64,000 nucleotides of DNA from Mytilus edulis (lineage: Eukaryota), in assembly GCF_963676685.1 (NCBI RefSeq), contig NC_092353.1, forward strand, positions 84,320,001 through 84,384,000, given 5' to 3'. The translations under genes were made by a program, and so were the position numbers. Under the pieces are notes generated by a model that was not told where the DNA came from, ran no database searches, and saw only the letters and a list, made by a program, of their open reading frames with translations. This document shows positions 31,601 through 61,620 of the stretch, one piece after another. Numbering within the stretch: position 1 is the first letter of the stretch; every line of letters starts with the position of its first letter.

Positions 31601-32072
31601 ATGGGATTTAGGAATTTGGTTGAGAAAATGCAGAGGGTGTGTTAATAATTACAATGAATTGTTAGGCTATCTATTTATTTTCACTATATTGAGGAACTTA
31701 AAAGGAGGCTAGTCACATGTATGCTTTAATTGTAAAATTGTTTAATAAAAATATAAAAAAAAGTAAAAACACAAAAATACTCAACTCTGAGGAAAATTCA
31801 AAAAAGAAAGTCCCAAATCAAACATCAAAATCAAAAGTTCAAACAAATCAAACAAATGGATAACATCTGTCATATTCCTAACTTAGTACAGGCATTTTCT
31901 TATGTAGAAAATGGTAAATTGAACCTGGTTTTATAGCTAGCTAAACCTCTCACTTGTATCACAGTCGCTTCAAATTCTATTATATTGTCAACGATGCTAC
32001 ACTGTTGAAAGATTGACTTTTAAACAATGTATGCTGAGATTTGGAATGGGTGAATAAATTTGAGTTCCTTAA

Positions 32073-36970: not shown

Positions 36971-37127
36971 CTTATTATATTTGGGGATATAGGACATCAT
37001 TACAATACTGACAACAATACCTTTCTCGCCGGCCAAAATAATAAAGATGAAAGTCTACAAGGTAAATTACTCCTCTTGTTTGAAAGATATTAAAAATGAT
37101 TTCATATGTTCACAAAGGAATGCAGAT

Positions 37128-38339: not shown

Positions 38340-38450
38340 AAGAAGAAAACGATACTATTTCAAGATTACATGCAGGATGTTGATGCCTGAAAAAAGACTG
38401 AATAAACCAGAGACAATCAATGTCGTTTGATTGATCGTGTGCAATAACTG

Positions 38451-39478: not shown

Positions 39479-42400
39479 CTATGCATAATAATTAATATTA
39501 TTGTTCCATCTTTCCAATAAATGTACAATATTTGTATGGTTTTCTCTTCTAGTAATAGCTAATGGTGTAAGTCCTCTCCATTTCCGGTAACAGTCTGCTT
39601 TATGTTTCAATAAAAAAATCAACAATTTCTGCATGGCCTTTATAACATGCTATAAATATGGAAGATTCTCTATTTTCTGTACACTTATTAATGTCTGCCT
39701 TATTATTCATTAACATCTGAAATACTTCAGTATGCCCTTTCCAACAAGCAATGTACAGAGGTGATTCTCTATCAGTATCTCTACGCTTATTAATGTCTGC
39801 CTTATTGTTTATAAACATCTGAACTACTTCAGTATGTCCTTCCTGACAAGCAATGTACAGAGGTGATACTTCTTCATCATCACACTTATTAATGTCAGCC
39901 TTATTGTTTATTAACATCTGAATTACTTCAGTATGTCCGTCCTGACAAGCAATGTACAGAGGTGATACCTCTTCATCATCACACTAATTAATGTCTGCCT
40001 TATTGTTTATCAACATCTGAACTACTTCAGTATGTCCTTCATGACAAGCAATGTACAGAGGTGATACTTCTTCATCATCACACTTATTAATGTCAGCCTT
40101 ATTTTTTATTAACATCTGAACTACTTCAGTATGTCCGTCCTGACAAGCAATGTACAGAGGTGATACCTCTTCATCATCACACTTATAAATGTCTGCCTTA
40201 TTGTTTATCAACATCTGAACTACTTCAGTATGTCCTTCATGACAAGCAATGTACAGAGGTGATACTCCATCAGTATCTCTATACTTATTAATGTCTACCT
40301 TATTGTTTATAAACATCTGAACTACTTCAGTATGTCCTTCCTGACTAGCAATGTACAGAGGTGATACCTCTTCATCATCACACTTATTTATGTCTGCCTT
40401 ATTGTTTATAAACATCTGAACTACTTCAGTATGTCCTTCAAGACAAGCAATGTACAGAGGTGATACTTCTTCATCATCACACTTATTAAAGTCAGCCTTA
40501 TTGTTTATTAACATCTGAACTACTTCAGTATGTCCGTCCTGACAAGCAATGTACAGAGGTGATACCTCTTCATCATCACACTTATTAATGTCTGCATTAT
40601 TGTTTATCAACATCTGAACTACTTCAGTATGTCCTTCATGACAAGCAATGTACAGAGGTGATACTCCATCAGTATCTCTACACTTATTAATGTCTGCCTT
40701 ATTGATTATAAACATCTGAACTACTTCAGTATGTCCTTCCTGACTAACAATGTACAGAGGTGATACTTCTTCATCATCACACTTATTAATGTCAGCCTTA
40801 TTGTTTATTAACATCTGAACTACTTCAGTATGTCCTTAAGGCAAGAAATGAACAGAGGTGATTCTCCAGAATCTCTACACTTATTAATGTCTGCCTTATT
40901 GTTTATTAACGTCTGAACTACTTCAGTATGTCCTTTCTGACAAACAATAATCAGAGGTGATGATCCAGTTTTTCTACACTTATTAATGTCAGCCTTATTG
41001 TTTATTAACATCTGAACTTCAGTATGTCCTTTATAATAAGCAATGTACAGAGTTGATTCTTCTGTATCTCTACACTTATTAATGTCAGCCTTATTGTTTA
41101 TTAACATCTGAACTACTTCAGTATGTCCTTTCTGACAAGCAATGTAAAGAGGTGATGATCCAGTATCTCTACACTTATTAATGTCTGACTTATTGTTTAT
41201 TAAAATCTGACCTACTTCAGTATGTCCTTCCTGACAAGCAATGTACAGAGGTCATACTTCTTCATCATCACACTTATTAATGTCTGCCTTATTGTTTATT
41301 AACATCTGAACTACTTCAGTATGTCCTTAATAACAAGAAATGTACAGAGGTGATTCTCCATTATATCTACACTTAATAATGTCTGCCTTATTGTTTATTA
41401 ACATCTGAACTACTTCAGTATGTCCTTTCTGACAAGCAATGATCAGTGGTGATGATCTAGTTTTTCTACACTTTTTAATTTCAGCCTTATTGTTTATTAA
41501 CATCTGAACTACTTCAGTATGTCCTTTATAACAAGCAATGTACAGAGGTGATGATCCAGTATCTCTACACGTATTAATGTCTGCCTTATTGTTTATTAAC
41601 ATCTGAACTACTTCAGTATGTCCTTTCTGACAAGCAATGTACAGAGGTGATGCTCCAGTATACCTACACTTATTAATGTCTGCCTTATTGTTTATTAACA
41701 TCTGAACTACTTCAGTATGTCCTTTCTGACAAGCAATGTACAGAGATGATGATCCAGTTTTTCTACACTTATTAATGTCTGCCTTATTGTTTATTAACAT
41801 CTGAACTACTTCAGTATGTCCATTATGACAAGCAATGTACAGAGGTGATACTTATTCATCATCACACTTATTAATGTCAGCCTTATTGTTTATTAACATC
41901 TGAACTACTACTTCTGTATGTCCTTTCTGACAAGCAATGTACAGAGGTGATGATCCAGTATCTCTACACGTATTAATGTCTGCTTTATTGTTTATTAACA
42001 TCTGAACTATTTCAGTATGTCCTTTCTGACAAGCAATGTACAGAGGTGATGATCCTGTATATCTACACTTATTAATGTCTGCCTTATTGTTTATCTACAT
42101 CTGAACTACTTCAGTATGTCCTTTCTGACAAGCAATGAACAGAGGTGATGATCCAGTTTTTCTACACTTATTAATGTCTGCCTTATCATTTATTAACATC
42201 TTAACTACTTAAGTACATACATCATGACAAGCAATGTACCGATGTGATACTTATTCATCATCACACTTATTAATGTCAGCCTTATTGTTTATTAACATCT
42301 GAACTACTTCAGTATGTTCTTTCTGACAAACAATGATCAGAGGTGATACCTCTTCATCATCACACTTATTAATGTCTGCCTTATTGTTAATTAACATATG

Positions 42401-45400
42401 AACTACTTTAGCATGTCCATCATGACAAGCAATGATCAGAGGTGATACTTATTCATCATCACACTTATTAATGTCAGCCTTATTGTTTATTAACATCTGA
42501 ACTACTTCAGTATGTTCTTTCTGACAAGCAATGTACAGAGGTGATACCTCTTCATCATCACACTTATTAATGTCAGCCTTATTGTTTATTAACATCTGAA
42601 CTACTTCAGTATGTCCATCATGACAAGCAATGTACAGAGGTGATACTTATTCATCATCACACTTATTAAAGTCAGCCTTATTGTTTATTAACATCTAAAC
42701 TACTTCAGTATGATCTTTCTGACAAGCAATGATCAGAGGTGATGATCCAGTATCTCTACACTTATTAATGTCTGCCTTATTGTTGATTAACATCTGAACT
42801 ACTTCAGTATGTCCTTTCTGACAAGCAATGTACAGAGGTGATGATCCAGTATCTCTATACTTATTAATGTCAGCCTTATTGTTTATTAACATCTGAACTA
42901 CTTCAGTATGTCCTTTATAACAAGACATGTACAGAGGTGATTCTCCAGTATCTCTACACTTATTAATGTCTGCCTTATTGTTTATTAACATCTGAACTAC
43001 TTCAATATGTCCTTTCTGACAAGCAATGTACAGAGGTGATGATCCAGTTTTTCTACACTTATTAATGTCTGACTTATTGTTTATTAACATCTGAACTACT
43101 TCAGTATATCCACCATGACAAGCTATGTACAGAGGTGACACTTCATCATAATCACACTTATTAATGTCAGCCTTATTGTTTATTAACATCTGAACTACTT
43201 CAGTATGTTCTTTCTGACAAGCAATGATCAGAGGTGATGATCCAGTTGTTCTACACTTATTAATGTCAGCCTTATTGTTTATTAACATCTGAACTACTTC
43301 AGTATGTCCTTCCTGACAAGCAATGAACAGAGGTGATACTTCTTCATCGTCACACTTATTTATGCCAGCCTTATTGTTTATTAACATCTGAACTACTTCA
43401 GTATGTCCTTTATAACAAGCAATGTACAGAGGTGATTCTCCAGTATCTCTACACTTATTAATGTCTGCTTTATTGTTTATTAACATCTGAACTACTTCAG
43501 TATGTCCTTTCCAACAAGCAATAAACAGAGGTGATTCTTCAGTATCTCTACACTTATGAATGTCTGCTTGATTGTTTGTTAACATCTGAACTACTGCAGT
43601 ATGCCCTTTCCAACAAGCAATGTACAGAGTCGATTCTCCAGTATCTCTACACTTATTAATGTCTGCCTTATTGTTTATTAACATCTGAACTACTTCAGTA
43701 TGTCCTTTCTGACAAGCAATGTACAGAGGTGATGATCCACTTTTTCTACACTTATTAATGTCTGACTTATTGTTTATTAACATCTTAACTACTTCAGTAT
43801 ATCCACCATGACAAGCAATGTACAGAGGTGATACTTCATCATCATCACACTTATTAATGTCAGCCTTATTGTTTATTAACATCTGAACTACTTCAGTATG
43901 TTCTTTCTGACAAGCAATGATCAGAGGTGATGATCCAGTATCTCTACACTTATTAATGTCTGCGTTATTGTTGATTAACATCTGAACTACTTCAGTATGT
44001 CCTTTCTGACAAGCAATGTACAGAGGTGATGATCCAGTATCTCTATACTTATTAATGTCAGCCTTATTGTTTATTAACATCTGAACTACTTCAGTATGTC
44101 CATTATAACAAGACATGTACAGAGGTGATTCTCCAGTATCTCTACACTTATTAATGTCTGCCTTATTGTTTATTAACATCTGAACTACTTCAATATGTCC
44201 TTTCTGACAAGCAATGTACAGAGGTGATGATCCAGTTTTTCTACACTTATTAATGTCTGACTTATTGTTTATTAACATCTGAACTACTTCAGTATATCCA
44301 CCATGACAAGCTATGTACAGAGGTGACACTTCATCATAATCACACTTATTAATGTCAGCCTTATTGTTTATTAACATCTGAACTACTTCAGTATGTACTT
44401 TCTGACAAGCAATGATCAGAGGTGATGATCCAGTTGTTCTACACTTATTAATGTCAGCCTTATTGTTTATTAACATCTGAACTACTTCAGTATGTCCTTC
44501 CTGACAATCAATGTACAGAGGTGATACTTCTTCATCGTCACACTTATTTATGCCAGCCTTATTGTTTATTAACATCTGAACTACTTCAGTATGTCCTTTA
44601 TAACAAGCAATGTACAGAGGTGATTCTCCAGTATCTCTACACTTATTAATGTCTGCTTTACTGTTTATTAACATCTGAACTACTTCTTTATGTCCTTTCC
44701 AACAAGCAATAAACAGAGGTGATTCTTCAGTATCTCTACACTTATTAATGTCTGCTTGATTGTTTGTTAACATCTGAACTACTGCAGTATGCCCTTTCCA
44801 ACAAGCAATGTACAGAGTCGATTCTCCAGTATCTCTACACTTATTCATGTCTGCCTTATTGTTTATTAACATCTGAACTACTTCAGTATGTCCTTTCTGA
44901 CAAGCAATGTACAGAGGTGATGATCCACTTTTTCTACACTTATTAATGTCTGACTTATTGTTTATTAACATCTTAACTACTTCAGTATATCCACCATGAC
45001 AAGCAATGTACAGAGGTGATACTTCATCATCATCACACTTATTAATGTCAGCCTTATTGTTTATTAACATCTGAACTACTTCAGTATGTTCTTTCTGACA
45101 AGCAATGATCACAGGTGATGATCCAGTTTTTCTACGTTTATTAATGTCAGCCTTATTGTTTATTAACATCTGAACTACTTCAGTATGTCCCTTCTGACAA
45201 GCAATGTACAGAGGTGATGATCCAGTATTTCTACACTTATTAATGTCAGCCTTATTGTTTATTAACATCTGAACTACTTCAGTATGTCCTTTATAACAAG
45301 CAATGTACAGAGGTGATTCTCCAGTATCTCTACACCTATTAATGTCTGCGTTATTGTTTATTAACATCTGAACAACTTCAGTATGTCCTTCCTGACAAGC

Positions 45401-48006
45401 AATGTACAGAGGTGATACTTCTTCATCATCACACTTATTTATGCCAGCCTTATTGTTTATCAACATCTGAACTACTTCAGTATATATTTTATAACAAGCA
45501 ATGTACAGAGGTGATGATCCAGTATCTCTACACTTATTTATGTCAGCCTTATTGTTTATTAACATCTAAACTACTTCAGTATGATCTTTCTGACAAGCAA
45601 TGATCAGAGGTGATGATCCAGTTTTCTACACTTATCAATGTCTGCCTTATTGTTTATTAACATCTAAACTACTTCAGTATGTCCTTTCTTACAAGCAATG
45701 TACAGAGGTGATGATCCAGTATCTCTATACTAATTAATGTCAGCATTATTGTTTATTAACATCTGAACTACTTCAGTATGTCCTTTATAACGAGCAATGT
45801 ACAGAGGTGATTCTCCAGTATCTCTACACTTATTAATGTCTGCCTTATTGTTTATTAAAATCTGAACTACTTCAGTATGTCCTTTCTGACAAGCAATGTA
45901 CAGAGGTGATGATCCAGTATCTCTACACTTATTAATGTCTGCCTTATTGTTTATTAACATCTGAACTACTTCAGTATGTCCTTTCTGACAAGCAATGTAC
46001 AGAGGTGATGATCCAGTATCTCTATACTTATTAATGTCAGCCTTATTGTTTATTAACATCTGAACTACTTCAGTATGTCCTTTGTAATAAGAACTGTACA
46101 GAGGTGATTCTCCAGTATCTCTACACTTATTAATGTCTGCCTTATTGTTTATTAACATCTGAACTACTTCAATATGTCCTTTCTGACAAGCAATGTACAG
46201 AGGTGATGATCCAGTTTTTCTACACTTATTAATGTCTGACTTATTGTTTATTAACATCTGAACTACTTCAGTATATCCACCATGACAAGCTATGTACAGA
46301 GGTGACACTTCATCATAATCACACTTATTAATGTCAGCCTTATTGTTTATTAACATCTGAACTACTTCAGTATGTTCTTTCTGACAAGCAATGATCAGAG
46401 GTGATGATCCAGTTGTTCTACACTTATTAATGTCAGCCTTATTGTTTATTAACATCTGAACTACTTCAGTATGTCCTTCCTGACAAGCAATGTACAGAGG
46501 TGATACTTCTTCATCGTCACACTTATTTATGCCAGCCTTATTGTTTATTAACATCTGAACTACTTCAGTATGTCCTTTATAACAAGCAATGTACAGAGGT
46601 GATTCTCCAGTATCTCTACACTTATTAATGTCTGCTTTATTGTTTATTAAAATCTGAACTACTTCGGTATGTCCTTTCCAACAAGCAATAAACAGAGGTG
46701 ATTCTTCAGTATCTCTACACTTATTAATGTCTGCTTGATTGTTTGTTAACATCTGAACTACTGCAGTATGCCCTTTCCAACAAGCAATGTACAGAGTCGA
46801 TTCTCCTGTATCTCTACACTTATTAATGTCTGCCTTATTGTTTATTAACATCTGAACTACTTCAGTATGTCCTTTCTGACAAGCAATGTACAGAGGTGAT
46901 GATCCACTTTTTCTACACTTATTAATGTCTGACTTATTGTTTATCAACATCTGAACTACTTCAGTATATCCACCATGACAAGCAATGTACAGAGGTGATA
47001 CTTCATCATCATCACACTTATTAATGTCAGCCTTATTGTTTATTAACATCTGAACTACTTCAGTATGTTCTTTCTGACAAGCAATGATCACAGGTGATGA
47101 TCCAGTTTTTCTACATTTATTAATGTCAGCCTTATTGTTTATTAACATCTGAACTACTTCAGTATGTCCTTTCTGACAAGTAATGTACAGAGGTGATGAT
47201 CCAGTATCTCTACACTTATTAATGTCAGCCTTATTGTTTATTAACATCTGAACTACTTCAGTATGTCCCTTCTGACAAGCAATGTACAGAGGTGATGATC
47301 CAGTATTTCTACACTTATTAATGTCAGCCTTATTGTTTATTAACATCTGAACTACTTCAGTATGTCCTTTATAACAAGCAATGTACAGAGGTGATTCTCC
47401 AATATCTCTACACTTATTAATGTCTGCCTTATTGTTTATTAACATCTGAACAACTTCAGTATGTCCTTCCTGACAAGCAATGTACAGAGGTGATACTTCT
47501 TCATCATCACACTTATTTATGCCAGCCTTATTGTTTATCAACATCTGAACTACTACAGTATATCCTTTATAACAAGCAATGTACAGAGGTGATTCTCCAG
47601 TATCTCTACACTTATTTATGTCTGCCTTATTGTTTATTAACATCTGAACTACTTCAGTATGTCCTTTCCAACAAGCAATGTACAGAGGTGATTCTCCAGT
47701 ATCTCTGCACTTATCAATGTCTGCCTTATTGTTTATTAACATCTAAACTACTACAGTATATCCTTTATAACAAGCAATGTACAGAGGTGATTCTCCAGTA
47801 TCTCTACACTTATTTATGTCTGCCTGATTGTTTGTTAACATCTGAACTACTTCAGTATGTCCTTTCCAACAAGCCATGTACAGAGGCGATTCTCCAGTAT
47901 CTCTGCACTTATCAATGTCTGCCTTATTGTTTATTAACATCTAAACTACTTCAGTATGTTCTTTCTTACAAGCAATGTACAGAGGTGATGATCCAGTATC
48001 TCTATA
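39479..48006 (-). pseudogene. Disabled distal part of the ankyrin array plus ancestral C-terminal capping repeat
   Basis: Nonsense codons at 47941, 47743, 45730, 45664, 45566, 42695, 42647, 42449, 42251, 42095, 41852, 41327, 41252, 39984 (list may be incomplete). Frameshifts near 45620, 40838 and 39612-39618. Removing one base at the last gives ...DFLLKHKADCYRKWRGLTPLAITRRENHTNIVHLLERWNNNINYYA* with TAG at 39479-39481. Confidence 0.8.
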
Positions 48007-51000
48007 CTAATTAATGTCAGCATTATTGTTTATTAACATCTGAACTACTTCAGTATGTCCTTTATAACGAGCAATGTACAGAGGTGATTCTCCAGTATCT
48101 CTACACTTATTAATGTCTGCCTTATTGTTTATTAAAATCTCAACTACTTCAGTATGTCCTTTCTGACAAGCAATGTACAGAGGTGATGATCCAGTATCTC
48201 TACACTTATTAATGTCTGCCTTATTGTTTATTAACATCTGAACTACTTCAGTATGTCCTTTCTGACAAGCAATGTACAGAGGTGATGATCCAGTATCTCT
48301 ATACTTATTAATGTCAGCCTTATTGTTTATTAACATCTGAACTACTTCAGTATGTCCTTTGTAACAAGAACTGTACAGAGGTGATTCTCCAGTATCTCTA
48401 CACTTATTAATGTCTGCCTTATTGTTTATTAACATCTGAACTACTTCAATATGTCCTTTCTGACAAGCAATGTACAGAGGTGATGATCCAGTTTTTCTAC
48501 ACTTATTAATGTCTGACTTATTGTTTATTAACATCTGAACTACTTCAGTATATCCACCATGACAAGCTATGTACAGAGGTGACACTTCATCATAATCACA
48601 CTTATTAATGTCAGCCTTATTGTTTATTAACATCTGAACTACTTCAGTATGTTCTTTCTGACAAGCAATGAGCAGAGGTGATGATCCAGTTGTTCTACAC
48701 TTATTAATGTCAGCCTTATTGTTTATTAACATCTGAACTACTTCAGTATGTCCTTCCTGACAAGCAATGTACAGAGGTGATACTTCTTCATCGTCACACT
48801 TATTTATGCCAGCCCTATTGTTTATTAACATCTGAACTACTTCAGTATGTCCTTTATAACAAGCAATGTACAGAGGTGATTCTCCAGTATCTCTACACTT
48901 ATTAATGTCTGCTTTATTGTTTATTAACATCTGAACTACTTCGGTATGTCCTTTCCAACAAGCAATAAACAGGGGTGATTCTTCAGTATCTCTACACTTA
49001 TTAATGTCTGCTTGATTGTTTGTTAACATCTGAACTACTGCAGTATGCCCTTTCCAACAAGCAATGTACAGAGTCGATTCTCCAGTATCTCTACACTTAT
49101 TAATGTCTGCCTTATTGTTTATTAATATCTGAACTACTTCAGTATGTCCTTTCTGACAAGCAATGTACAGAGGTGATGATCCACTTTTTCTACACTTATT
49201 AATGTCTGACTTATTGTTTATCAACATCTGAACTACTTCAGTATATCCACCATGACAAGCAATGTACAGAGGTGATACTTCATCATCATCACACTTATTA
49301 ATGTCAGCCTTATTGCTTATTAACATCTGAACTACTTCAGTATGTTCTTTCTGACAAGCAATGATCACAGGTGATGATCCAGTTTTTCTACATTTATTAA
49401 TGTCAGCCTTATTGTTTATTAACATCTGAACTACTTCAGTATGTCCTTTCTGACAAGCAATGTACAGAGGTGATGATCCAGTATCTCTACACTTATTAAT
49501 GTCAGCCTTATTGTTTATTAACATCTGAACTACTTCAGTATGTCCCTTCTGACAAGCAATGTACAGAGGTGATGATCCAGTATTTCTACACTTATTAATG
49601 TCAGCCTTATTGTTTATTAACATCTGAACTACTTCAGTATGTCCTTTATAACAAGCAATGTACAGAGGTGATTCTCCAGTATCTCTACACCTATTAATGT
49701 CTGCCTTATTGTTTATTAACATCTGAACAACTTCAGTATGTCCTTCCTGACAAGAAATGTACAGAGGTGATACTTCTTCATCATCACACTTATTTATGCC
49801 AGCCTTATTGTTTATCAACATCTGAACTACTACAGTATATCCTTTATAACAAGCAATGTACAGAGGTGATTCTCCAGTATCTCTACACTTATTTATGTCT
49901 GCCTTATTGTTTATTAACATCTGAACTACTTCAGTATGTCCTTTCCAACAAGCAATGTACAGAGGTGATTCTCCAGTATCTCTACACTTATTAATGTCTG
50001 CCTGATTGTTTGTTAACATCTGAACTACTTCAGTATGTCCTTTCCAACAAGCCATGTACAGAGGCGATTCTCCAGTATCTCTGCACTTATTAATGTCTGC
50101 CTTATTGTTTATCAACATCTGAACTATTTCAGTATGTCCTTTATAACAAGCAATGTACAGAGGTGATTCTCCAGTATCTCTGCACTTCTTAATGTCTGCC
50201 TTATTGTTTATTAACATCTGAACTACTTCAGTATGTCCTTTCCAACAAGCCATGTACAGAGGTGATTCTCCAATATCTCTACACTTATTAATGTCTGCCT
50301 TATTGTTTATTAACATCTGAACTACTTCAGTATGCCCTTTCCAACAAGCAATGTACAGAGGCGATTCTCCAGTATATCTACACTTATTAATGTCTGCCTT
50401 ATTGTTAATTAACATCTGAACTACTTCAGTATGTCCTTTCTGACAAGTAATGTACAGAGGCGATGCTCCAGTATCTCTACACTTATTAATGTTTGCCTTA
50501 TTGTTTATTAACATCTGAACTACTTCAGTATGTCCTTCATGACAAGCAATGTACAGAGGTGATACTTCTTCATCATTACACTTATAAACGTCTGCCTGAT
50601 TTTTTATTAACATCTGAACTACTTCAGTGTGTCCTTCCTGACAAGCAATGTACAGAGGTGATATTTCTTTATCATCACACTTATTTATGTCAGCCTTATT
50701 GTTTATTAACATCTGAACTACTTCAGTATGTCCGTTCCAACAAGCAAAGTACAGAGGTGATACTTCGTCATCATCACACTTATTAATGTCTGCCTTATTG
50801 TTTATTAACATCTCAACTACTTCAGTATGTCCTTTCTGACAAGCAATGTACAGAGGTGATGATCCAGTATCTCTACACTTATTAATGTCTGCCTTATTGT
50901 TTATTAACATCTGAACTACTTCAGTATGTCCTTTCTGACAAGCAATGTACAGAGGTGATGATCCAGTATCTCTATACTTATTAATGTCAGCCTTATTGTT

Positions 51001-51170
51001 TATTAACATCTGAACTACTTCAGTATGTCCTTTGTAATAAGAACTGTACAGAGGTGATTCTCCAGTATCTCTACACTTATTAATGTCTGCCTTATTGTTT
51101 ATTAACATCTGAACTACTTCAGTATGTCCTTCCTGACAAGCAATGCACATAGGTGATTCTCCATCACTAT
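39600..51170 (-). repeat. Tandem array of ~116 ankyrin-encoding 99-bp units (a few 102 or 96 bp)
   Basis: Consensus xxxxSPLYIACxxGHTEVVQMLINNKADINKC repeats continuously. 11.57 kb / 99 bp gives ~116-117 units (estimate). Confidence 0.97.
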
Positions 51171-52487
51171 CACGACTATGGTTTACATTATTGGTATAAT
51201 GATGGAGACACCATTTAACTAAATCAATATTTCCTATAAAACAACACTGTATTAATGGAGTACTGTTGTCAGTGTCATATGAACTGGCCAATTGTTTTTG
51301 TTGTGATATTGCTAAGCTTTTTATATGAAGTAGTAATTGTTTTCCGAAGATGCAATCGTCCATATTGATGTTACAGAAAACATCCACTACCTTTCCTCTT
51401 GACCAGTCATCAACCATTCTGTTTAGATACATTTGCTGATATTTTTTTGGTACAATAATTGTAAATTCATCATTTTTGCTTTTTCTTTCAAATAAAAATC
51501 TTTCACTAATAAATTGACTTGTAGTATTATTAATTAAACAATAAATCATTTTATTGCCAAAGTAAAAAGCAAGAAAGTCAAATAGCTTGTCATGAATGGT
51601 TCTGTAGACTTCACCATCCTTTCTGATGTATGTACGTGTAAGTGAATCTAGCTCATCACGTAAAACCAATCGTGACGTCCCTTCAACCACTTTACAAGCT
51701 TCATATGTGTTCTTTATAATTGTTTTGATGTTTTCATTCACATGTTCAGTAAGCCATTCTTCTTTCAACTGATTGTTAAACATTACACATAGAGCAAGTG
51801 CACAGTATTTGACATGTGCTCCCTCTGTCTGTAATTTATCTATCTCTTCTTTGTAAACTGTAAATGGATTCGTAAAGAAATTTACAATGTTCAGTTTTGG
51901 GTTTTTGCTGTACAATTGACACAAAAGAGGAAAACAGTCAAACATGTCAAACAATTCACTGATATCAGAAGCGTTTGTTTTCAGGTAAAATTCAGCAATG
52001 GATTGTTTTTCTGTTTTCAATAAACACAAATCGGCAGACTGAAGATTGCATTCACAAGTTTGAAAGAATGATAACGCTTTCATTTGCCTATCCCTATAAA
52101 CCTGTAGTCTACAAGACATTATTAACTTCACTTGTTTCTTTTCTACTAATGTCTTGATTTTTTCCATAACATTTTTCCAGGTTTCTAACTTCATTGGATT
52201 TAAACTATATGTTCCACAAAAATCATCCACTACAAACAATGTCTTCTTACTTGGATCGTACCACTTGATGATTTCCTTTGGATTTGATACTGATAAAATC
52301 TCATAGCCTTCATTTTGCATCTGTAAAGCTACGTGACGCACCAATGATGTTTTCCCTGTACCAGAACTTGCTGTGACAACAACACAACCATTTTCTTTAA
52401 TGCACTTTAATACACATTTTGCTCCGTTTGTTTCTATAAATGTTTTGTCATCTTCTTTCCAGTTTTCTAATTCCTCATTAATTTGTC
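48007..52487 (-). CDS. Coding exon 4: nSTAND3-type P-loop NTPase, helical region, ~32 ankyrin repeats
   Basis: Acceptor TTTTCTTTTCCAG ends at 52488, extending the listed ORF 5' to GQINEELENWKEDD.... Walker A ASSGTGKT at 52348-52371, Walker B LFVVDD. Canonical ankyrin units start near 51165. Confidence 0.9.
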
Positions 52488-55400
52488 CTGGAAAAGAAAA
52501 TTTGACAACTCTTTTAATACTTCTTTTTTAAGATGAAAGTTCAGAAATATTTGACATATATGATAAAGAAAATTTGCTTGACATATGGTATAAACAACAG
52601 GCTTGACCTATCCATGCTATGTATAGGTAAAAGACTTGACATACGGTATGAACAATTTGCTTGTCAAATGGTATAGACAAAAGGCTAGACATATGGTATG
52701 GACAAAAGGCTTGACCTATGAATACTATGTATTTAGGCAAAAGGCTTCACATACGTATTTATAATTTGCTTGAAAATAAGTATAGACAAAAGGCTTGGAT
52801 ACGGTGTCGAAAAAGGGCTTGACCTACAGTATAGACAAAAGGCTCAACCTATGGTATAGACAAAGGCTTGACCTATAATAAATAAAGGCAACAGTAGTTT
52901 ACCGCTGTTCAAAACTGATAAATCCATGGAAAAAAACAAAATCGGGGTAACAACCTAAACCCGATGGAAACGCATTTCACAATGATATGCACTGGAAATA
53001 GGTTTGGAATATGATAATTTGCCAGACATAGTGTATGGACAAAAGGCTTGACTTATAAATGCTATGTATTTATGACTTATAATATGGACAATTCACTTAA
53101 CATATGGTTTAGATTTGATTTTTGAATTTTGGTGTTTTAACCGCTTTTTGTTATATTTCATGGCGGTTTGTATTGGTGGAGGAAGCCCGAGTGCCTGGAG
53201 ACCACCACCGACCTTCGATATATGGTTTAAACATTTCACTTGACATATGGTTCACATAACTGACATAACATCTATAGGGTATGGATACTTGACTTGACAT
53301 ATTATATAGACATTTCACTTGACATACTGTACATATAATTGACATAACATCTATAGGGTATAGATAACTGACATAACATCAATAGGGTATGGATAATTGA
53401 CTTGACATATGATATAGACATCACTTGACATAGGGTACTATATAAATAACATATAGCTGAGAGGGTGATAGAGCAGATTGGTACCCCGAGAAAACATTGT
53501 CAACCGCGGCGAAGCCAAGGTTGACAATGCCTTTTCGAGGGGTTCCAATCTGCTCTATCACCCTCTCAGCTATGTGTTATTTAATTTATTATACTGAATG
53601 TTCTGTTATTACTGTCGATTTTTTAAATTCAAAGTAATAAACTGTGACATCTTGTACATAACCATCCGTATTTAGTAAAGCGCACACTTGATCAAACGTC
53701 TCCGTGAAGGGTAATAGAGTATTTGCCATAGGATAGTGTCGTATTGAATAAAGCGCACACTTGATCAAGCGTCTCTGGGAAGGGTGATAGAGTATTTGTC
53801 ATAGGATAGAGTCGTATTTAATAAAGCGCACACTTGATCAAGCGTCTCCATGAAGGGTAATAGAGTAAATTGACACCCTCGTATTAGCCAATCAAAATCT
53901 GGCATTTTGACATGAAGTATAATAAATATAATTGACATAACATCTATACGGTATAGATAACTGACATAACATCTATAGGGTGTGGATAATTGACTTGACA
54001 TATAATATAGACATTTCACTTGACAAACGGTACATATAATTGACATAACATCTATAGGGTATAACTGACATAACATCTATAGGGTTTGGATAATTGACTT
54101 GACATATAATATAGACATTTCACTTGACATACGGTACATATAATTGACATAACATCTATAGGGTAAAGATAACTGACACAACATCTATAGGGTACGGATA
54201 ATTGACTTGACATATGATATAGACCTTTTAATCGACATAGGGTACATATAATTGACATAACATATATAGGGTACAGATAACTGACATAACATCTATAGGG
54301 TATGGATAATTGACTTGACATATGATATAGACACTTCACTTGACATAGGGTACAGATAATTGACATAACATCTATAAGGTACAGATAATTGACACAACAT
54401 CTATAGGGTATGGAAAATTGACATAACATCTATAGGGTATGGATAATTGACTTGACATATGATATGGTATCATATGGATATATGGTATGGACGATTGACT
54501 TCACATGAAGTATGGACAACTATCTTTACATATGGTATGGACAAGTAATTTGATGTCTGGTATAGACAATTAAATTGATATATGGTATAGACAATTTGTA
54601 TGACTCATGGTGTAGACAATTGACTTGATATATGAAATGGAAAATTGACTTGACATATATGGTATGGACAACTAGTTTGACATAGTCATTGACTTTGAAT
54701 ATGGTATAGACATACTAAACTGATAGTTGACTTGATATATGGTAAAGCCAAGTGGTTTAACAATAGGTTTAGACAGTTGACTTGACATATGTGTAGCTAA
54801 ATGGCATCAGATTATATAAAGCCAGTTTTACTGGACATACGAGGGTCGTAATGGGTGTACCTTCACGATGAATAACTGTAAAAAATCGTGCCGAATGACG
54901 TTAACGGTAATTTTCGGTGGATAACGATAATATGTACACTTTCTTTAAGACGATTTAAAAGTCCAATGATTTTGACGAATCACATTAATTTTATTCCAAA
55001 AAACTATAATTATTTGAGACCTCTGACGAATCACGGTAAGGATATTTTGAGGAATCACGATAAAATTTAACCAATTAGACGCTATCAGTAGATGAAAATG
55101 ACCGTTTGACTCCTGACGGTAAAGGACATTACTATCCTCACATATGTGTAGCCAAATAACTTCAGATAAGATATAGACAATTGACTTGACATATGGTATA
55201 GCCAAGTGTAAGACATAAGGTATAGACAATTAGCTTGACATATGGTACCGAAAAGTAGTTTGAGATAACAGTTTACTTGGCATACGGTTAAGATAATTGT
55301 CTTGACATATCAAGCAAACAATTGCTATATGTTAGAAAAAGTGGTCGACATCAGGTAAGGACAAGTGACTTGACATATGGTTAATACAACTGGCTGGACA

Positions 55401-58400
55401 TTTGGTATAAATAATTGATTTGACATATGCTATGGACTATTGACTTGACATAAGATACGGACTATTAACTTGACACGTTGTATGGACAATTGACTTGATA
55501 TATGGCATTGATAAGCCATAATTGACATAAGGTATAGACTAATTACTTTACATACGATAAAGACAATGATTTGACATATGGTTTGGACAATTGACTTGAC
55601 ATATGTAATATGGACAATACAATTGACATATGATATGGGCATTTGATTTGAAATATGGTATGGACTATAGATTAACATAGGATCAGGACAACGGAACTGC
55701 AATCAAGTCTTGACATTGACATTGTTGAAACATTTTCATGCCATAATAAATTGACAATTGACTTGACATATGGTATTGACTATGGAAGCAACATTATTTA
55801 TAAACATTTGACTTGACACATGATATTGCCAAGTAGCTTGACATGAGTTATAAACAATTGGTTTACCATATTGTATGGATAATTGGTTTGACATAATAAT
55901 TGATGGCATATGGGGTAGATAATTGACTTGACATCTCAATGAGATAATTGACTTGATATATTGTATAGCAAAGTGACTAGAAATCAGATATTGACAACTG
56001 GCTTGGGATAAGATATGGACAATTGATTTGACATATGGTTAAGACAGTTTACTTGACAGATGTGATGGACAATTGGTTTGATATACGGAATGGAAAATTT
56101 ACTTGACATATGGTATAGATGATTGGTTTGACATAATAAATGATTTGGCATAAGGATATATAGATAAATGGCTTGACATTTCTAACAGATAATTGACTTC
56201 ACATAGGATATAGCCAAGTATCGTGACATTAGATACAGACAACTGACTTGATATATAGTGTGGACAAATTGGTTTTGCATATAATAATTGACTTGGTATA
56301 TTGTAAAGACAATTGACATGAAATAAAGTATGGCAAAGAGGCTTGACATATGGTATTACCAAGTGCATTGATATGTATAGATAATTGACTTGGTATATGG
56401 CATAACATATGGTATAGCATATTAATCTATTGCAATAAAAAAATCATAGTATCTAATAAAATTTGTAGATTAAGCTAACAAAGTCCTCATATTTGGATAC
56501 AAGTAACATTCGTTTATAGTGGATAATTGTTTTAACGTTGAATAAGCTTCAAATAAAAATTGCTTGCTAGTCCCTCTCTGTGATTACCATTAAATATTTC
56601 TGGTTCATTTCCCAATCAATCTATCATCAAGTGAAGATAAATACTTCGATTTTCATTCAAACTCTTTTTCAAAAATGATAAACGGTTCTTTATATTGGTA
56701 TGTAATCATTTTAAACGTTTCAAATTTATGAAATTATATTCGTACATCAATGTTTTTGATATACCAATAACAAAAACTGAAATATATTCAATTGATACAT
56801 TTTGTAATTATTCAAAATTATATCATAAACCTTAACTTAATTATAAAAAAATTAACAGGTTTAGGGGAGACAATACTCGCATAACTTTTTCGAATTGGCA
56901 CATAACACAACGGAATGTCACTCTTGCATACAAATGGCACATCAATATAATTTATTAACTGTGCAATCGTGCTACACCTTCAACTATGATTCTAGATTAT
57001 AAATATAATCAAAAGTTGTTAATCTATAGATAGTGAAGCTAATGAAAGCTAACCCACTGTAAAAATATTTCTTTGCGATTTTTTAAAACTTTCTCAAAAA
57101 AATGCTCGAGCCACTTGAATTTCATAGCTCAAAATTAACGTTTATACACAATTTTTGAATAAAGTAGTTGAAGATTATTCGCTTCTTAAAATATAAGACG
57201 CAATTAAAATCGTATGCTTGCACCATCTTACCGAAATATGTATTTAATTAAGTCCTGAACATTTAGACATTTCTTCGTCTATTTTAATCAAAACCGGTTT
57301 TAAACAACTTACAAGTACGTGTTAAGATCCGACTAAATACATATTTCCCGCTATGGTCAGGTAAATTTGCTACTATTATAATATATACCTCTTAGGTTCC
57401 ATGGTATTGGGTCTTTTAAAATCTCTGTGACTTTTGAGTGTTCAATTTGTAAATCCCTATGGGAATTCTTCAGATCTATCAGATTTTTTGTAGTGCTTGA
57501 GTTTTCTGTTTGCAAAGCTGTAAGATTTTCCCTCATGGTAGAGTGTTCAATTTCTATTGTTCGTCTCAATTCCTTCATTTCTTCCTGTGATTGTTTGATT
57601 TCCAGCATAATTTCCTGGTTTGACTGATCTAAGATTTTAACCTTTAGATCTAGGCACTCCTGATTCATTGGTAAACCACCCAATCTATTTACAGCCTGAA
57701 GATAAATATTCCAGAAAGTTACCATAAACAGAGTTGCAATCTTCGTATATTCATAAGAAGTAATTATTTTTGGGTTAGGTATAGATTTTAAATTTATGAT
57801 AATGGAAAAAAAAACTCAGGAAATATATGTCACAGGATGAATACGAAATATGCCAACATTTTAGTCAATGAATTCAAGAGGGGCGAAAGATACCAGAGGA
57901 ACAGTCAAACTTATAAATCGACAATAAACTGACAACGCCAAGGCTTTAAATGAAAAAGAAAAACAGAGACATCATAGTACACAAGAAACAACATAGAAAA
58001 CTAAAGACTGAGCAACACGAATCCCACCAAAAACGGGAGGTGTTCTCAGGTGCCCTGGGAAATTGTGACTTATATATACTAGTAATAAGATGATGTACTT
58101 ATTGATATCTAAGTCTGTTTTGCACGATGTATGTCATCTACGAGGGTTTTTTTATAAGTTGTCAGTAAGTGTAGGTGCTTTTTTTCTTTACTCTTATCAC
58201 ATTATTGATTGTGAATCTGATGAGTCAAGCCCTTTTCAGATGATTTTCAAAAAAATCATGGCTGTTCGGTTTTGTAGTGATGTTTTAGTTCATTTTCGAA
58301 TAATGAGTTTATATGTCCCTTTGGTATTTTTTGCCTCTCTATTACCTATCTGTCACAGGTTAGATACGGGTTGGGTGCTCACAAACATTTTTAACAATAC

Positions 58401-59992
58401 CACAATATTTTTATGTCTATCCCAAATCAAGAGCCGCCAATTCATTGGTTTTCAGTAATTGCTGTCTACAACTTTTTTTTCGTTTAATGTTTGTTTGATA
58501 AATACGGTTGTTTATTTTGTTTTAAATATTGTGTTCATCAAGTTTTTTACAGTTTACTTAATGGTATATGTTTTGCTCATTGCTGAAACTATGCGCCGAC
58601 CTGTACAATATAATTATTTTTTAAAGAATGTACTTACATCTACTACATTTGTCCATGCTGTATTGAAATCACCTGTTGGCATGGTGTTACTATCATGATG
58701 AGCTAGTATATTTCTGTACCATTTAATCCTGGCAAGATCAGACCCTGGAGTTGTCTCCCCTGGTAGTGGTAGCTTATCAAATCCATTGATTGGAGGGGTG
58801 ACAGATGTCAAGTTTCTGATCAAACATATCATCAACGTTACATCAAAAGTTTTGGAATTCGGTACACCTGTAACAACGGCAGACATTGAACGTCAACAGC
58901 TATTCATTTCTCTTTATAAACAAAATTCGCTCTAGTAAATAACGGCAACGGTTGTCTACCGCTGTTCAAAAGTAATCAATCGATTGTGAGAAAACAGATC
59001 CGGGTTTATTATCAAAACCGAGGGTAACACATTACATACTAGTATAAGAACATAACAACGGAACAACAGAAACGCTGAAATGCAACAAACAGACGCAAAC
59101 AAACATAGCAATGAACTGTTTGGCGTGACTGGTAGATAAATTCATATATCACCATGTACGTAATACAAATTGTATAAAATTCACCATCTACTGCATCTAG
59201 ATGAGTAACCTTCTGACCGGTATTATAACGTTGGTGTTGTCTCTCTCTACTGTTCTTCTTATGTTTAGCATTAAGATATTTGAAATATTTTTACATTATT
59301 TGATTTTTGTTTTAAAGTTTTATAACACTATATTTTGTTTGTTTTTGAAAAACTTTCATTGAAAGATGGATGTATTAATCAATTCAATGACAAAATAAAT
59401 GCATATTGAGGACAAGAACAAATTAACAGACAGCAAAATAAGTAAGTCTGCAATTTATACAGAGAGTATAAAAATAATTGTTCTTTAACCAACTAAAGCC
59501 CAAGCTATTTTCTGTTTCTTTTAGCTTTACTTTAACATGTTTAATTCATGACTTTTATAGAATAAAGATAATTTGTATTAGAGCTTGGCCTAATGCTTTA
59601 TATGTGTCTGTTGATGAGGAGTGTATGTTGTCCTTCTTTTATTCCTACATTGTTGGATCCATATCACCGCAAAATCTGCATAAAATCAGATTGTCAATTC
59701 ATATCAATCAAATATAAAACAGAGCTACTGTATTTCTGTAGACATATATAGATACATACCGGTATATAAAATACGTACCATTTGTTGGAAATAAAAGATT
59801 CCACTGAGCTTGGTTTAAGATTCTCTTTTTAAACAATCCATTCAGAGTGTTGTAGTTTTTTTTCAACGTTGATGGTAGAAAAGTAGGTGGAAATTCCTTG
59901 TCAAAGAAAGTACGGACTGCTCTTGGTGTTACTCCTCTCAATAACAAAGCTAATCTGATATAATTCTCTTCTTCGTCCGAAAGAGGTGACAT
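48007..59992 (-). CDS. HEPN (DZIP3-like) - coiled coil - nSTAND3-type NTPase - ~32x ankyrin protein (NLR/STAND-like); join of complement(59779..59992, 58638..58867, 57389..57695, 48007..52487), 1743 aa
   Basis: Four exons joined at GT-AG sites with matching phases (1,0,1). Lengths 214+230+307+4481=5232 nt, divisible by 3 and open to TAG at 48007-48009. Motifs: FDVTLMICLIRNL and DLARIKWYRNILAH (HEPN), VVVTASSGTGKT (Walker A), LFVVDDFCG (Walker B), then ankyrin repeats. Domain names are from recognition, not a search. Confidence 0.88.
53443..53925. mobile_element. Foldback-type insertion: 141-bp terminal hairpin plus 3 x ~73-bp internal repeats
   Basis: Inverted repeat 53443-53583 centred on gcGAAgc. 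taaagcgcacacttgatcaa occurs three times. The insertion splits one minisatellite unit at a TA-rich site. Confidence 0.7.
54841..55138. mobile_element. Possible ~300-bp MITE
   Basis: Imperfect 13-bp TIR gagggtcgtaatg / cattactatcctc, with internal gaatcac repeats. Confidence 0.45.
57389..57695 (-). CDS. Coding exon 3: end of HEPN plus coiled-coil linker
   Basis: Acceptor TCTTCAG ends at 57696; GT donor at 57388. Heptad-like E/Q/K/L-rich sequence ending DPIPWNLR. Confidence 0.82.
58638..58867 (-). CDS. Coding exon 2: HEPN core with R-x4-H motif (RNILAH, 58698-58715)
   Basis: Acceptor TTACAG ends at 58868; donor GTAAGT starts at 58637. Translation is VPNSKTFDVTLMICLIRNL...DLARIKWYRNILAHHDS...AWTNVVD. 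Confidence 0.88.
59779..59992 (-). CDS. Coding exon 1: N-terminal helix of DZIP3-like HEPN region (MSPLSDEEENYIRLALLL...NQAQWNLLFPTN)
   Basis: ATG at 59992-59990. Donor GTACGT starts at 59778. A TTTTTTCCAG acceptor at 60060-60059 suggests the exon starts near 60058 and that a 5' UTR exon lies further upstream. Confidence 0.85.
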
Positions 59993-60384: not shown

Positions 60385-61620
60385 AAAAGTAAAATCACAA
60401 AAATACTGAACTTAGAGGAAGATCAATTGGGAAAGTCCATAATCACATGGCAAAATCAAATAACAAAACGCATCAAAAACGAATGGACAAGAACTGTCAT
60501 ATTCCTGACTTGGTACAGGCATTTTCAAATGTAGAAAATGGTGGATTAAACCTGGTTCTATAGCGCTAACCCTCTCACTTTTGTAATGACAGTCTCATCA
60601 ATTTCCGATATTTTTACATTGATGCGTTAAATAAACAGACACAATAAATATAATAGTCAAAATATGGGTACATCAGTCATCATCGTTTAACAATTTTAAA
60701 AGGAACAATTTAACAGAACACAAAAACATCTACTATCTACGAACACATTTATTGAGTGTCTGACGTCAGAAAATTTTATACGTCACATAAATTTGTCGTT
60801 CAATGTGCGTACAAACAATTTTAAAATTTTCATGGGAATGTTAGCATACAGGGTTAAAAAATCAAAAGTATGTAAGAATAAATTTAAGAAATAGACCGAG
60901 ATTTAAACTAGTCCAAAAGTTATATATAGAATTTATAAGAATCCAAAAATAGTTAATACCACTACGCGATTGAATGATTTTGACGTTTGTGGTTCAACGT
61001 ATATTGTAATTCATAATAGAAATATATCATAATGACATATAATAGAACAATATCATACTGACGGGATCTTTTAAAGTACAGAGTCACGTTATAAGAACAA
61101 AAGAAATACAAAAAGTCGCAAATACAAAACAAACCACAAAAAAATGAAAGCCAATACAAACACATTGACGAGATGTATAAGTACCGAGCCACGTGAAACG
61201 GATATCACATGAAACCATTTAACAGTAAAAGTAATATTAATAATAGAACAAAGACAAATGAAAGAACTATAAAACACGTTGTTAAGATGATAAACAACAT
61301 CAGTACGAAGAATCTATACATCAAGACCATCGTGTATTATTTGAGAAGTTGATACGGAATATTTATCAACAAGGTCTTGGTACCTTCCGATGAACTTTTT
61401 TAGAAAAAGAACGAGACGTTCTTTGACATACCCCTGTTTCATCAACTTTCTACTCAGACACTGATGACGTATTACAAAGTCTGAGTAGGAGCTGCAAGCT
61501 CTTGAATATCGAATAAGTTGGGAAATATATATCCCATATGCAGGTGAAGTTGGTATATTGCTACTAAGGTGGGGGAAATTTATGATTTCAAAATTAAAAT
61601 CGTCTCGTTTGTCATAGATT
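60385..61620 (-). mobile_element. Second Penelope-like RT family remnant with long 3' UTR
   Basis: Minus strand ~61620-61380 translates YDKRDDFNFEIINFPHLSSNIPTSPAYGIYISQLIRYSRAC. The terminus aagtaaaatcacaaaaatactgaac is shared with short fragments at ~6090, ~23620, ~31760 and, inverted, ~5380 and ~10150. Confidence 0.75.

What the first reader, a model, noticed from the sequence alone, without database searches (positions are those of the whole stretch)
51170..59992. Intact HEPN R-x4-H motif fused to a STAND NTPase: animal counterpart of Avs / RNase L logic
Seen: RNILAH at 58698-58715, a coiled coil, Walker A ASSGTGKT (Ala at the first position) and Walker B LFVVDD. Established: HEPN RNases form their active site by dimerisation, and STAND proteins oligomerise on ligand binding, as in bacterial Avs antiviral STANDs; RNase L pairs ankyrins with a HEPN-related KEN domain. 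Inference: ligand-triggered RNA cleavage. This domain combination is, to my knowledge, already annotated in bivalve proteomes, but I know of no functional characterisation.
Basis: partly seen in the sequence, partly recalled or inferred. Interest (0 to 1): 0.72.

Follow-up and report, generated by a model that had tools for sequence, protein, structure and literature searches.

The report
Mussel HEPN–STAND–ankyrin immune receptor, truncated
This mussel gene joins a likely RNA-cutting domain to an ATP-binding switch and a long, fast-changing row of ankyrin repeats; the design is already on record in bivalves, its RNA-cutting role is predicted but untested, and this copy stops early in a repeat row of about 117 units.

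Summary
A four-exon minus-strand gene encodes 1,743 aa: DZIP3-like HEPN (RNILAH), coiled coil, nSTAND3 NTPase and about 33 ankyrin repeats. R, N and H of the motif are invariant in 118 of 118 HEPN-bearing relatives, and HEPN dN/dS is about 0.2. Ala in Walker A is the family norm (84 of 111). Relatives splice at introns 1 and 2; this copy itself had no exon reads. The HEPN+nSTAND3+ankyrin module is listed for oyster in Kaur 2021 source data, and this scan noted it before on other bivalve DNA. I found no functional test in print. At least 78 HEPN–nSTAND3 pairs lie in this genome. It likely works like Avs (the NTPase module aligns with bacterial REase–nSTAND3 proteins), but it is neither an Avs nor an RNase L. 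Beyond the finding's coordinates: the ankyrin array has about 117 near-identical units that vary at the binding face (pN 0.33 against 0.05). A TAG in unit 32 leaves about 84 units and the terminal cap untranslated, so this copy may be a truncated allele or a young pseudogene. New member of a known, untested kind.

The parts
59779..59992 (-). Exon 1: ATG and N-terminal half of the DZIP3-like HEPN domain
   Evidence: GT donor; PF18738 positions 3-34, E 3e-5; intron 1 (911 nt) skipped by RNA contigs of relatives in 4 of 4 runs
58638..58867 (-). Exon 2: HEPN core
   Evidence: PF18738 E 1.8e-20; AG/GT ends; intron 2 (942 nt) skipped at these ends in 2 of 4 runs
58698..58715 (-). R-x4-H motif RNILAH (residues 123-128)
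   Evidence: R, N and H invariant in 118 of 118 HEPN-bearing rows of a 143-row alignment
57389..57695 (-). Exon 3: last HEPN helix and coiled coil (about 57626-57411)
   Evidence: long helix in the model of relative P0007
52488..57388 (-). Intron 3 (4.9 kb) holding degenerate 25-, 29- and 108-bp tandem repeats
   Evidence: GT-AG ends; TRF; this junction was not tested with reads
48007..52487 (-). Exon 4 coding part: nSTAND3 NTPase, helical and winged-helix subdomains, about 33 ankyrin repeats, TAG stop
52348..52371 (-). Walker A ASSGTGKT
   Evidence: Lys 112 of 112, first position Ala 84 of 111
52222..52239 (-). Walker B LFVVDD
   Evidence: first Asp 108 of 108, second Asp 98 of 108
52108..52110 (-). 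Conserved Arg377 after the NTPase strand (sensor-type arginine; label recalled)
   Evidence: Arg in 110 of 114; coordinates
51928..51936 (-). CFP motif, likely the STAND GxP equivalent (label recalled)
   Evidence: Phe and Pro 112 of 112
51589..51597 (-). IHD motif at the end of the winged helix, likely the MHD-type motif of STAND proteins (label recalled)
   Evidence: His 113 of 118, Asp 105 of 118
48010..51273 (-). In-frame ankyrin array, about 33 repeats of 99 bp with high internal conservation
   Evidence: 33 Pfam Ank stretches; mean pairwise aa identity 0.81 among units 1-31; variable binding-face positions
39600..48006 (-). About 84 further ankyrin units behind the first stop, with stops and two frameshifts, ending in a broken terminal (cap-like) repeat
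   Evidence: 16 of 115 units carry a stop or frameshift, all from unit 32 on

Best explanation
This gene is a member of a large mussel family of NLR-like receptors in which an ankyrin sensor and an nSTAND3 ATP switch likely control a HEPN domain predicted to cut RNA, and this copy carries a sensor cut short by a stop codon. Shown: the architecture, the conserved motifs, purifying selection on HEPN and NTPase, and diversification of the ankyrin binding face. Inferred from STAND and HEPN biology: (1) at rest the protein is closed and ADP-bound; (2) a foreign or damage-linked protein binds the concave ankyrin face; (3) nucleotide exchange lets the nSTAND3 modules oligomerise; (4) the coiled coil and first HEPN helix pair two HEPN domains so that two R-N-x3-H motifs form one active site; (5) viral or host RNA is cut and the cell stops translating or dies. 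Specificity would be varied by duplication and reshuffling of repeats.
For: PF18738 and PF20720 hits above cut-off. R, N and H invariant in 118 of 118 rows; dN/dS of the HEPN part 0.17-0.23 against 9 of 9 paralogs, and pN/pS 0.28 on this copy's own branch (p 1.4e-6). Walker A Lys, Walker B Asp, Arg377, CFP and IHD are conserved. The NTPase-to-winged-helix module aligns with a bacterial Mrr-like nuclease + nSTAND3 protein (hhalign probability 97.4, E 9e-12, 326 columns) and hits the PADLOC defence candidate PDC-S73 at E 1.4e-20. Avs5, with nSTAND3, needs its Walker A Lys, effector and repeat sensor (preprint passages). Residues 1-200 of relative P0007 are predicted to self-pair: score 0.51, best of 3 controls 0.00; runs agree in at least 91% of contacts, pLDDT at least 87. 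The mark was reached by 21 of 30 solved pairs and 0 of 23 single chains in microbes, and by 17 of 29 and 0 of 30 in eukaryotes (animals 7 of 16; only 1 of 7 with no older solved relative, so a pass may be from memory). Ankyrin positions 2, 3, 5, 13, 14, 33 have mean entropy 1.31 against 0.39 bits (p 0.002) and pN 0.33 against pS 0.18; framework pN 0.046 against pS 0.12. At least 78 HEPN-nSTAND3 pairs in the genome. Relatives are transcribed and spliced at introns 1 and 2.
Against: No activity, ligand or induction data exist here, and none was found in print. In the predicted dimer the confident contacts are helix 17-28, residues 61-66, 78-84, 133 and the coiled coil 173-196; the motif Arg and His (124, 129 in P0007) are not named, so a composite active site is not shown. 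This copy had no reads on exons 1 and 2 and only stray depth under 1 on exon 3 in 4 of 4 raw RNA runs (6-18% of each read, 95% identity). Its frame ends without the capping repeat that most near paralogs have. Private changes in the in-frame repeats are 10 nonsynonymous to 3 synonymous, which is no sign of recent purifying selection. The repeat pN/pS uses non-independent pairs from duplicated blocks.
Confidence: 0.5

Rival explanations
1. This particular copy is a young pseudogene: the repeat array ran away by block duplication, took stops and lost its cap, and the intact 5' half simply has not decayed yet. The family mechanism may still hold for intact paralogs.
For: TAG in unit 32 and 15 more broken units behind it; no exon 1 or 2 reads in 4 of 4 raw RNA runs; 4 of 26 fetched paralogs are broken inside the NTPase part and 1 more has a mid-array stop; 24 of 150 NTPase exons lie in frames under 450 aa.
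Against: The stop lies in the last predicted exon and 33 repeats remain, within the family's range (27 of 150 frames reach 1,500 aa or more). No lesion in about 5.1 kb of 5' coding sequence, while the distal 3.1 kb has 10 broken units. Branch pN/pS is 0.28-0.35 in HEPN and NTPase parts, though this may predate the stop. The RNA runs come from other animals, which may lack this copy.
Confidence: 0.25
2. The HEPN domain is a conserved RNA-binding or dimerising adaptor, or a constitutive dimer, and the receptor signals by recruiting partners instead of cutting RNA.
For: No DZIP3-like HEPN has a solved relative detectable by sequence profile, and I found no assay in print. The predicted dimer interface is led by the coiled coil and does not name the motif residues. 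In relatives the nSTAND3-ankyrin module also occurs without HEPN (77 of 120 hits lack the HEPN core, some being partial models).
Against: Invariance of exactly R, N and H, plus Arg119, Lys121 and Asp81 (99-100%), fits catalysis better than a scaffold; HEPN families that turn non-catalytic tend to lose the motif (passages of PMC3710099).
Confidence: 0.15
3. The receptor is an RNase switch, but its trigger is a self or allo-variant protein (allorecognition, transmissible cancer cells, gamete or larval incompatibility), as with the high-internal-conservation NLRs of Podospora.
For: The array meets the high-conservation pattern with a few hypervariable positions, which in fungi marks allorecognition NLRs (PMC13449251, passages and section 12). 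Kaur 2021 raises infectious tumour cells as triggers for related bivalve receptors.
Against: No direct evidence. Scores of dispersed paralogs with birth and death fit pathogen-driven repertoires at least as well. No repeat is shared letter for letter with 8 of 8 near paralogs (best 96 of 99).
Confidence: 0.1

Closest known systems
Bivalve HEPN+nSTAND3+Ankyrin module (Kaur et al. 2021, PMC8195603, Figure 4 source data; Crassostrea virginica XP_022306070.1, XP_022308753.1)
   Same: Same three domains in the same order; nSTAND3 was defined there from bivalve proteins; HEPN read as an RNase effector.
   Different: The oyster rows that I saw (6 isoforms of 2 genes) carry an extra N-terminal TM, cysteine-rich and TRADD-N part; here the HEPN starts at the first Met. 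No experiment in the passages read.
DZIP3/hRUL138-like HEPN family PF18738 (Anantharaman 2013, PMC3710099; pearl oyster HEPN-NACHT receptors, PMC9646362)
   Same: Same HEPN family, Rx4H intact, lineage-specific expansion in bivalves, fused to a STAND NTPase and repeats, RNase role inferred.
   Different: Those receptors use NACHT with LRR, TPR or WD40; this one uses nSTAND3 with ankyrins and a coiled coil.
Uncharacterised Mytilus proteins, e.g. LOC127724554 (P0007), LOC143049638 (P0003)
   Same: Same architecture in five Mytilus species, up to 88% identical over the NTPase part.
   Different: The near paralogs that I fetched mostly have 6-15 repeats and a terminal cap; this copy has about 117 units with a stop in unit 32.
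Bacterial nSTAND3 defence proteins: Avs5 (Sir2-nSTAND3-TPR) and PADLOC candidate PDC-S73 (Mrr-like nuclease + nSTAND3)
   Same: Effector-STAND-repeat layout; homologous nSTAND3 module.
   Different: Prokaryotic; NADase or DNase-type effector; Avs5 has TPR/Sel1/PPR sensors and no ankyrins; about 18% identity.
Vertebrate RNase L
   Same: Ankyrin repeats and a HEPN-superfamily RNase in one chain; activation by dimerisation (recalled; KEN row of Table 1).
   Different: No kinase or pseudokinase, no KEN-type hit, opposite domain order, a STAND switch instead; no reason to expect 2-5A sensing.
High-internal-conservation NLRs of Podospora (HNWD and ankyrin/TPR types; PMC13449251)
   Same: Near-identical repeats with a few hypervariable positions, repeat gain and loss, frequent pseudogenes.
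   Different: Animal host, nSTAND3 instead of NACHT/NB-ARC, HEPN effector; exchange of repeats between genes was not seen here.

Membership tests
DZIP3/hRUL138-like HEPN (PF18738) | Profile match above the curated cut-off | tested here: met
   Exon 2: 73.6 bits against cut-off 27, E 1.8e-20; Atlas first hits are PF18738 clusters, 0.95-0.96 (relative P0007)
DZIP3/hRUL138-like HEPN (PF18738) | Rx4-6H motif, conserved in relatives | tested here: met
   RNILAH; R, N, H in 118 of 118 rows
DZIP3/hRUL138-like HEPN (PF18738) | Dimer that brings two motifs into one active site | tested here: inconclusive
   Self-pairing predicted for relative P0007 (0.51, best control 0.00), but motif residues are not among the confident contacts and no coordinates were available
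DZIP3/hRUL138-like HEPN (PF18738) | RNase activity | not testable with these tools
   Needs an assay; none found in print
STAND NTPases, nSTAND3 clade (PF20720) | Profile match, Walker A Lys-Thr/Ser, Walker B Asp, sensor Arg | tested here: met
   E 9.5e-30 over 153 of 155 positions; conservation
STAND NTPases, nSTAND3 clade (PF20720) | Helical and winged-helix subdomains with GxP-like and HD motifs, then a repeat sensor | tested here: met
   CFP and IHD conserved (motif labels recalled); module aligns with a bacterial nSTAND3 protein over 326 columns; ankyrins follow
STAND NTPases, nSTAND3 clade (PF20720) | Ligand-triggered, nucleotide-dependent oligomerisation | not testable with these tools
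   No ligand known; not modelled
Avs (bacterial antiviral STAND) | Effector-STAND-repeat sensor architecture with a homologous NTPase | tested here: met
Avs (bacterial antiviral STAND) | Prokaryotic gene with TPR-like phage-protein sensor; match to an Avs model | tested here: not met
   Intron-containing animal gene with ankyrins; no model named Avs was hit in PADLOC 2.0, only PDC-S73 and ankyrin-bearing models. It works like an Avs at most.
RNase L / KEN | Ankyrin - (pseudo)kinase - KEN order | tested here: not met
   No kinase or KEN-type family among the Pfam rows shown for the four exons (best 25 per protein); order is HEPN - coiled coil - STAND - ankyrin
Canonical animal NLR | NACHT domain with LRR sensor | tested here: not met
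   nSTAND3 and ankyrins; no NACHT or LRR among the rows shown
NLR with high internal conservation | Repeat similarity of 0.7 or more | tested here: met
   Mean pairwise aa identity 0.81, 0.88 to the commonest residue, units 1-31 (my own measure, not T-REKS Psim)
NLR with high internal conservation | A few hypervariable binding-face positions with excess amino-acid change | tested here: met
   pN 0.33 against pS 0.18 at six positions; framework 0.046 against 0.12 (pairs not independent; position choice from recalled DARPin numbering)
NLR with high internal conservation | Repeat exchange between genes | tested here: inconclusive
   No identical unit in 8 of 8 near paralogs, best 96 of 99 bases; only a small part of the family was compared
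NLR with high internal conservation | Repeat-number polymorphism between alleles | not tested
   One assembly only

The most novel reading that the evidence does not exclude
Mussels keep a repertoire of scores of direct-acting NLR ribonucleases, built on the same nSTAND3 switch as bacterial antiphage Avs5/PDC-S73 proteins, whose ankyrin sensors are diversified like a natural DARPin library by block duplication; the 84 untranslated repeats behind the stop are a reservoir that unequal crossing-over can bring into frame. This would be an animal pathogen sensor that destroys RNA by itself, without interferon or 2-5A.
Probability: 0.2. Interest if true: 0.75.

Novelty: new member of a known kind. 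Interest (0 to 1): 0.38.

Why it matters
Bivalves lack adaptive immunity, yet carry hundreds of HEPN and STAND genes whose function has only been inferred. If the motif-dependent RNase activity is real, these are self-contained sensor-nuclease receptors in animals, the closest animal parallel to bacterial Avs defence, and candidates for disease resistance in farmed mussels and oysters. The domain combination itself is not new. What this locus adds is a well-conserved, easily expressed test case (intact paralogs such as P0007), quantitative signs of selection on the catalytic motif, and a clear animal example of a highly conserved, binding-face-variable ankyrin sensor array.

Tried and rejected
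Fold comparison of the HEPN and NTPase parts was not achieved: both searches with the 881-aa model of P0007 (pLDDT 89.5, pTM 0.62) were filled by ankyrin matches, and a single-sequence model of an ankyrin-free relative was unusable (pLDDT 41). A sequence search of the PDB with exon 4 gave only ankyrins among the best 60 of 327; a profile of 26 ankyrin-free rows gave nothing better than E 0.012. Ala in Walker A as a sign of inactivity: rejected. The 117-unit array as a pure assembly duplication: unlikely, since duplicated blocks differ by 0.7-1.6% and carry shared stops, but it was not checked with reads. The giant array as unique: rejected; a paralog on contig C7 has a 3,810-aa open frame with roughly 87-102 repeats. 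The tail as a donor to other genes: no identical unit in 8 near paralogs, and a DNA search with the stop region listed no other place above 92% (150 of 255 matches shown). Private-mutation test of front against tail: too few changes to decide. Expression in raw RNA reads: only an intronic repeat was covered. RNA runs with word shares of 0.16-0.19 proved to hold relatives, not this copy. Literature: no paper for PDC-S73 or for Mytilus + ankyrin + presence-absence + NTPase; an oyster single-nucleus preprint lists 'Dzip3' as induced by OsHV-1 but as a ubiquitin enzyme, so it cannot be tied to this family (passage); PMC7773633 has HEPN only in its references. The 2026 STAND survey preprint names no mollusc or ankyrin in its main text; its supplements could not be seen and may place nSTAND3 clades.
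Full report
1. The observation. Removing three GT-AG introns gives one open frame of 1,743 aa from the ATG at 59992 to a TAG at 48009-48007. Exon 2 matches PF18738 (DZIP3-like HEPN, E 1.8e-20), exon 1 the start of that model, exon 4 PF20720 (nSTAND3, E 9.5e-30) followed by 33 ankyrin stretches. R-x4-H alone would arise by chance 0.27 times in 250 aa, so the profile hit and conservation carry the claim, not the motif.

2. The splice model. A database protein of Mytilus californianus (P0007, 881 aa) is collinear with all four exons. RNA contigs of relatives (mostly 82-95% alike) skip exactly the 911-nt intron 1 in 4 of 4 runs from 4 studies, and the 942-nt intron 2 in 2 of 4; several end on the exon 3 donor and run on. 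At 95% identity, 4 of 4 raw RNA runs (6-18% of each read) gave no reads on exons 1 and 2 and only stray depth on exon 3. So the family is transcribed; this copy is not shown to be.

3. The family. A search with the NTPase part gave 198 proteins, 120 listed; every named one is from Mytilus (five species, up to 88% identity), which places the window in a Mytilus mussel. Of these 120, 43 carry the HEPN core and all 43 keep R-N-x3-H. In a 143-row alignment, R, N and H are invariant in the 118 rows with the core. Among the 119 hits of a HEPN search, 110 fit my motif pattern; of the 9 misses one has RNYIAH, four (an octocoral protein and three unnamed relatives, HEPN-NACHT-WD40) have R-x5-H, two lack exon 2, one has lost the motif and one was not resolved. 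In the own genome 150 HEPN exons (of 343 candidates) and 150 NTPase exons (of 443) were scored; 78 of the 150 NTPase exons have a HEPN exon within 20 kb upstream on the same strand, 57 of them in frames of 600 aa or more. These are lower bounds.

4. Selection. Against 9 of 9 fetched paralogs, dN/dS is 0.17-0.23 for HEPN; it is 0.15-0.47 for the nucleotide-binding part in the 8 with exon 4 fetched. On this copy's own branch pN/pS is 0.28 (HEPN, p 1.4e-6), 0.34 (NBD, p 0.015) and 0.35 (helical/winged helix, p 9e-4); the coiled coil is not significant (crude majority ancestor). Walker A Lys is 112 of 112 and its first position Ala in 84 of 111, so the Ala is normal. Walker B Asp, Arg377, CFP and IHD are conserved; reading them as sensor, GxP and MHD-type motifs is recalled knowledge.

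5. Structure. AlphaFold2 on P0007 with 143 rows gave pLDDT 89.5, pTM 0.62: helical HEPN, one long helix 173-249, a P-loop alpha/beta domain, helical subdomains, ankyrins. Fold searches were filled by ankyrins, so the HEPN and NTPase folds were not compared with solved structures. Two copies of P0007 residues 1-200 scored 0.51 against a best control of 0.00, runs agreeing in at least 91% of contacts, pLDDT at least 87; the mark was reached by 21 of 30 solved pairs and 0 of 23 single chains (eukaryotes 17 of 29 and 0 of 30; animals 7 of 16; 1 of 7 with no older solved relative). The contacts are the first HEPN helix, the loop with invariant Asp81, residue 133 and the start of the coiled coil; the motif Arg and His are not named. 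The model supports pairing, not catalytic geometry.

6. The bacterial link. The NTPase part hits PADLOC PDC-S73 (E 1.4e-20) and 22 plasmid records, several annotated as restriction endonucleases. Two that I fetched are Mrr-like nuclease + nSTAND3 proteins and match PDC-S73. A profile of 26 mussel rows aligns with one over 326 columns (probability 97.4). Atlas neighbours are molluscan, then bacterial nSTAND3 clusters. Avs5 is reported as Sir2-nSTAND3-repeat and needs its Walker A (preprint passages). The Avs analogy therefore rests on a homologous switch. Direction or timing of transfer was not tested. The RNase L analogy is loose: no kinase, no KEN, different order.

7. What lies beyond the finding. 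The ankyrin array has 116 anchored 99-bp units from 51120 to 39728 plus a diverged first repeat. Units are about 87% alike in DNA and arose partly by block duplications of 11-20 or more units that differ by 0.7-1.6%. Variation concentrates at positions 2, 3, 5, 13 and 14, which in designed ankyrin proteins form the binding face (numbering recalled): entropy 1.31 against 0.39 bits, pN 0.33 against pS 0.18, framework pN 0.046 against pS 0.12 (pairs are not independent). The first stop is in unit 32; 16 of 115 units are broken, 10 of them in units 86-113, and stops in units 32-33 recur in 55-57, so they were copied with the block. The terminal repeat starts like the cap of paralogs and stops at 39600. 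Among 26 paralogs that I fetched (the nearest and the longest, not a random sample), 4 are broken in the NTPase part and 1 has a similar mid-array stop with 22 units behind it; another has a 3,810-aa open frame. Long arrays and breakage are thus family traits; this copy is an extreme case.

8. Mechanism. Shown: architecture, motif conservation, purifying selection, binding-face diversification, family size. Inferred: autoinhibited rest state, ligand binding by ankyrins, oligomerisation of nSTAND3, pairing of HEPN through the coiled coil, RNA cleavage and cell arrest. I give 0.5 to this reading with a working truncated copy, 0.25 to a young pseudogene of such a family, 0.15 to a non-catalytic HEPN and 0.1 to an allorecognition trigger.

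9. What is known. PMC3710099 (passages, Table 1) lists DZIP3-like HEPN fused to ankyrin and NACHT with an expansion in oyster. PMC9646362 (passages) describes over 50 HEPN-NACHT receptors in pearl oyster, 194 of 202 HEPN proteins with Rx4-6H, and infers RNase activity. PMC8195603 (passages; supplement hits) defines nSTAND3 from bivalve proteins and lists HEPN+nSTAND3+Ankyrin in 6 isoforms of 2 oyster genes (file 4 was cut when stored, file 13 not searched). PMC13449251 (passages, section 12) reports NLR-like proteins with highly conserved repeats in animals and includes nSTAND3 in its survey. Searches found no functional test; the library lacks most subscription journals.

10. Verdict. Real, well supported as an annotation, already on record as an architecture, and untested as a mechanism. 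New member of a known kind; interest 0.38.

Noticed in passing
window 39600-48006 (-): About 84 ankyrin units lie behind the first stop; two stretches stay open for 670 and 956 codons, and stops were copied along with duplicated blocks.
   Followed up: yes
G000:C7:92991800-93003233 (L033/L034): A distant paralog has a 3,810-aa open exon with roughly 87-102 in-frame ankyrin repeats of another consensus. Whether it has a HEPN exon was not checked.
   Followed up: partly
L041 (G000:C13:35746000-35755999): A close paralog (87%) also has a stop after 8 repeats with 22 more units behind it.
   Followed up: partly
G000:C10:84200287-84309928: Three more family members lie within 120 kb before the window on the same strand: one intact, one frameshifted in the NTPase, one fragmentary.
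   Followed up: partly
window 57411-57626 (-): The coiled coil has His-bearing heptads and changes length among relatives in steps of 7 or 21 residues (21-nt insertion at 57509 in RNA contigs). It may set the spacing between switch and effector.
   Followed up: no
window 29808-39179 (+): Several short open frames, two of them rich in charged helical sequence (31440-31712, 34199-34492), suggest a convergent coiled-coil gene ending close to the array; no Pfam hit for the four frames scanned.
   Followed up: partly
window 18955-19329 and 61314-61631 (-): Two similar open frames that resemble retroelement fragments (resemblance recalled); no Pfam hit.
   Followed up: partly
window 57876-58053: An intronic interspersed repeat draws nearly all RNA reads and very deep contig cover.
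   Followed up: no
P0207-P0210: An octocoral protein and three unnamed relatives join the same HEPN, with R-x5-H, to NACHT and WD40.
   Followed up: no
P0056, P0165: Domain swaps in Mytilus: nSTAND3-ankyrin behind a Roc-type GTPase (P0056), and the HEPN with PF01607 and no STAND (P0165) (precomputed Pfam).
   Followed up: no
L011:3476-7660: On a Rhizobium plasmid the nuclease-nSTAND3 gene is followed by a second restriction-endonuclease gene and a NACHT gene, a likely defence island.
   Followed up: no
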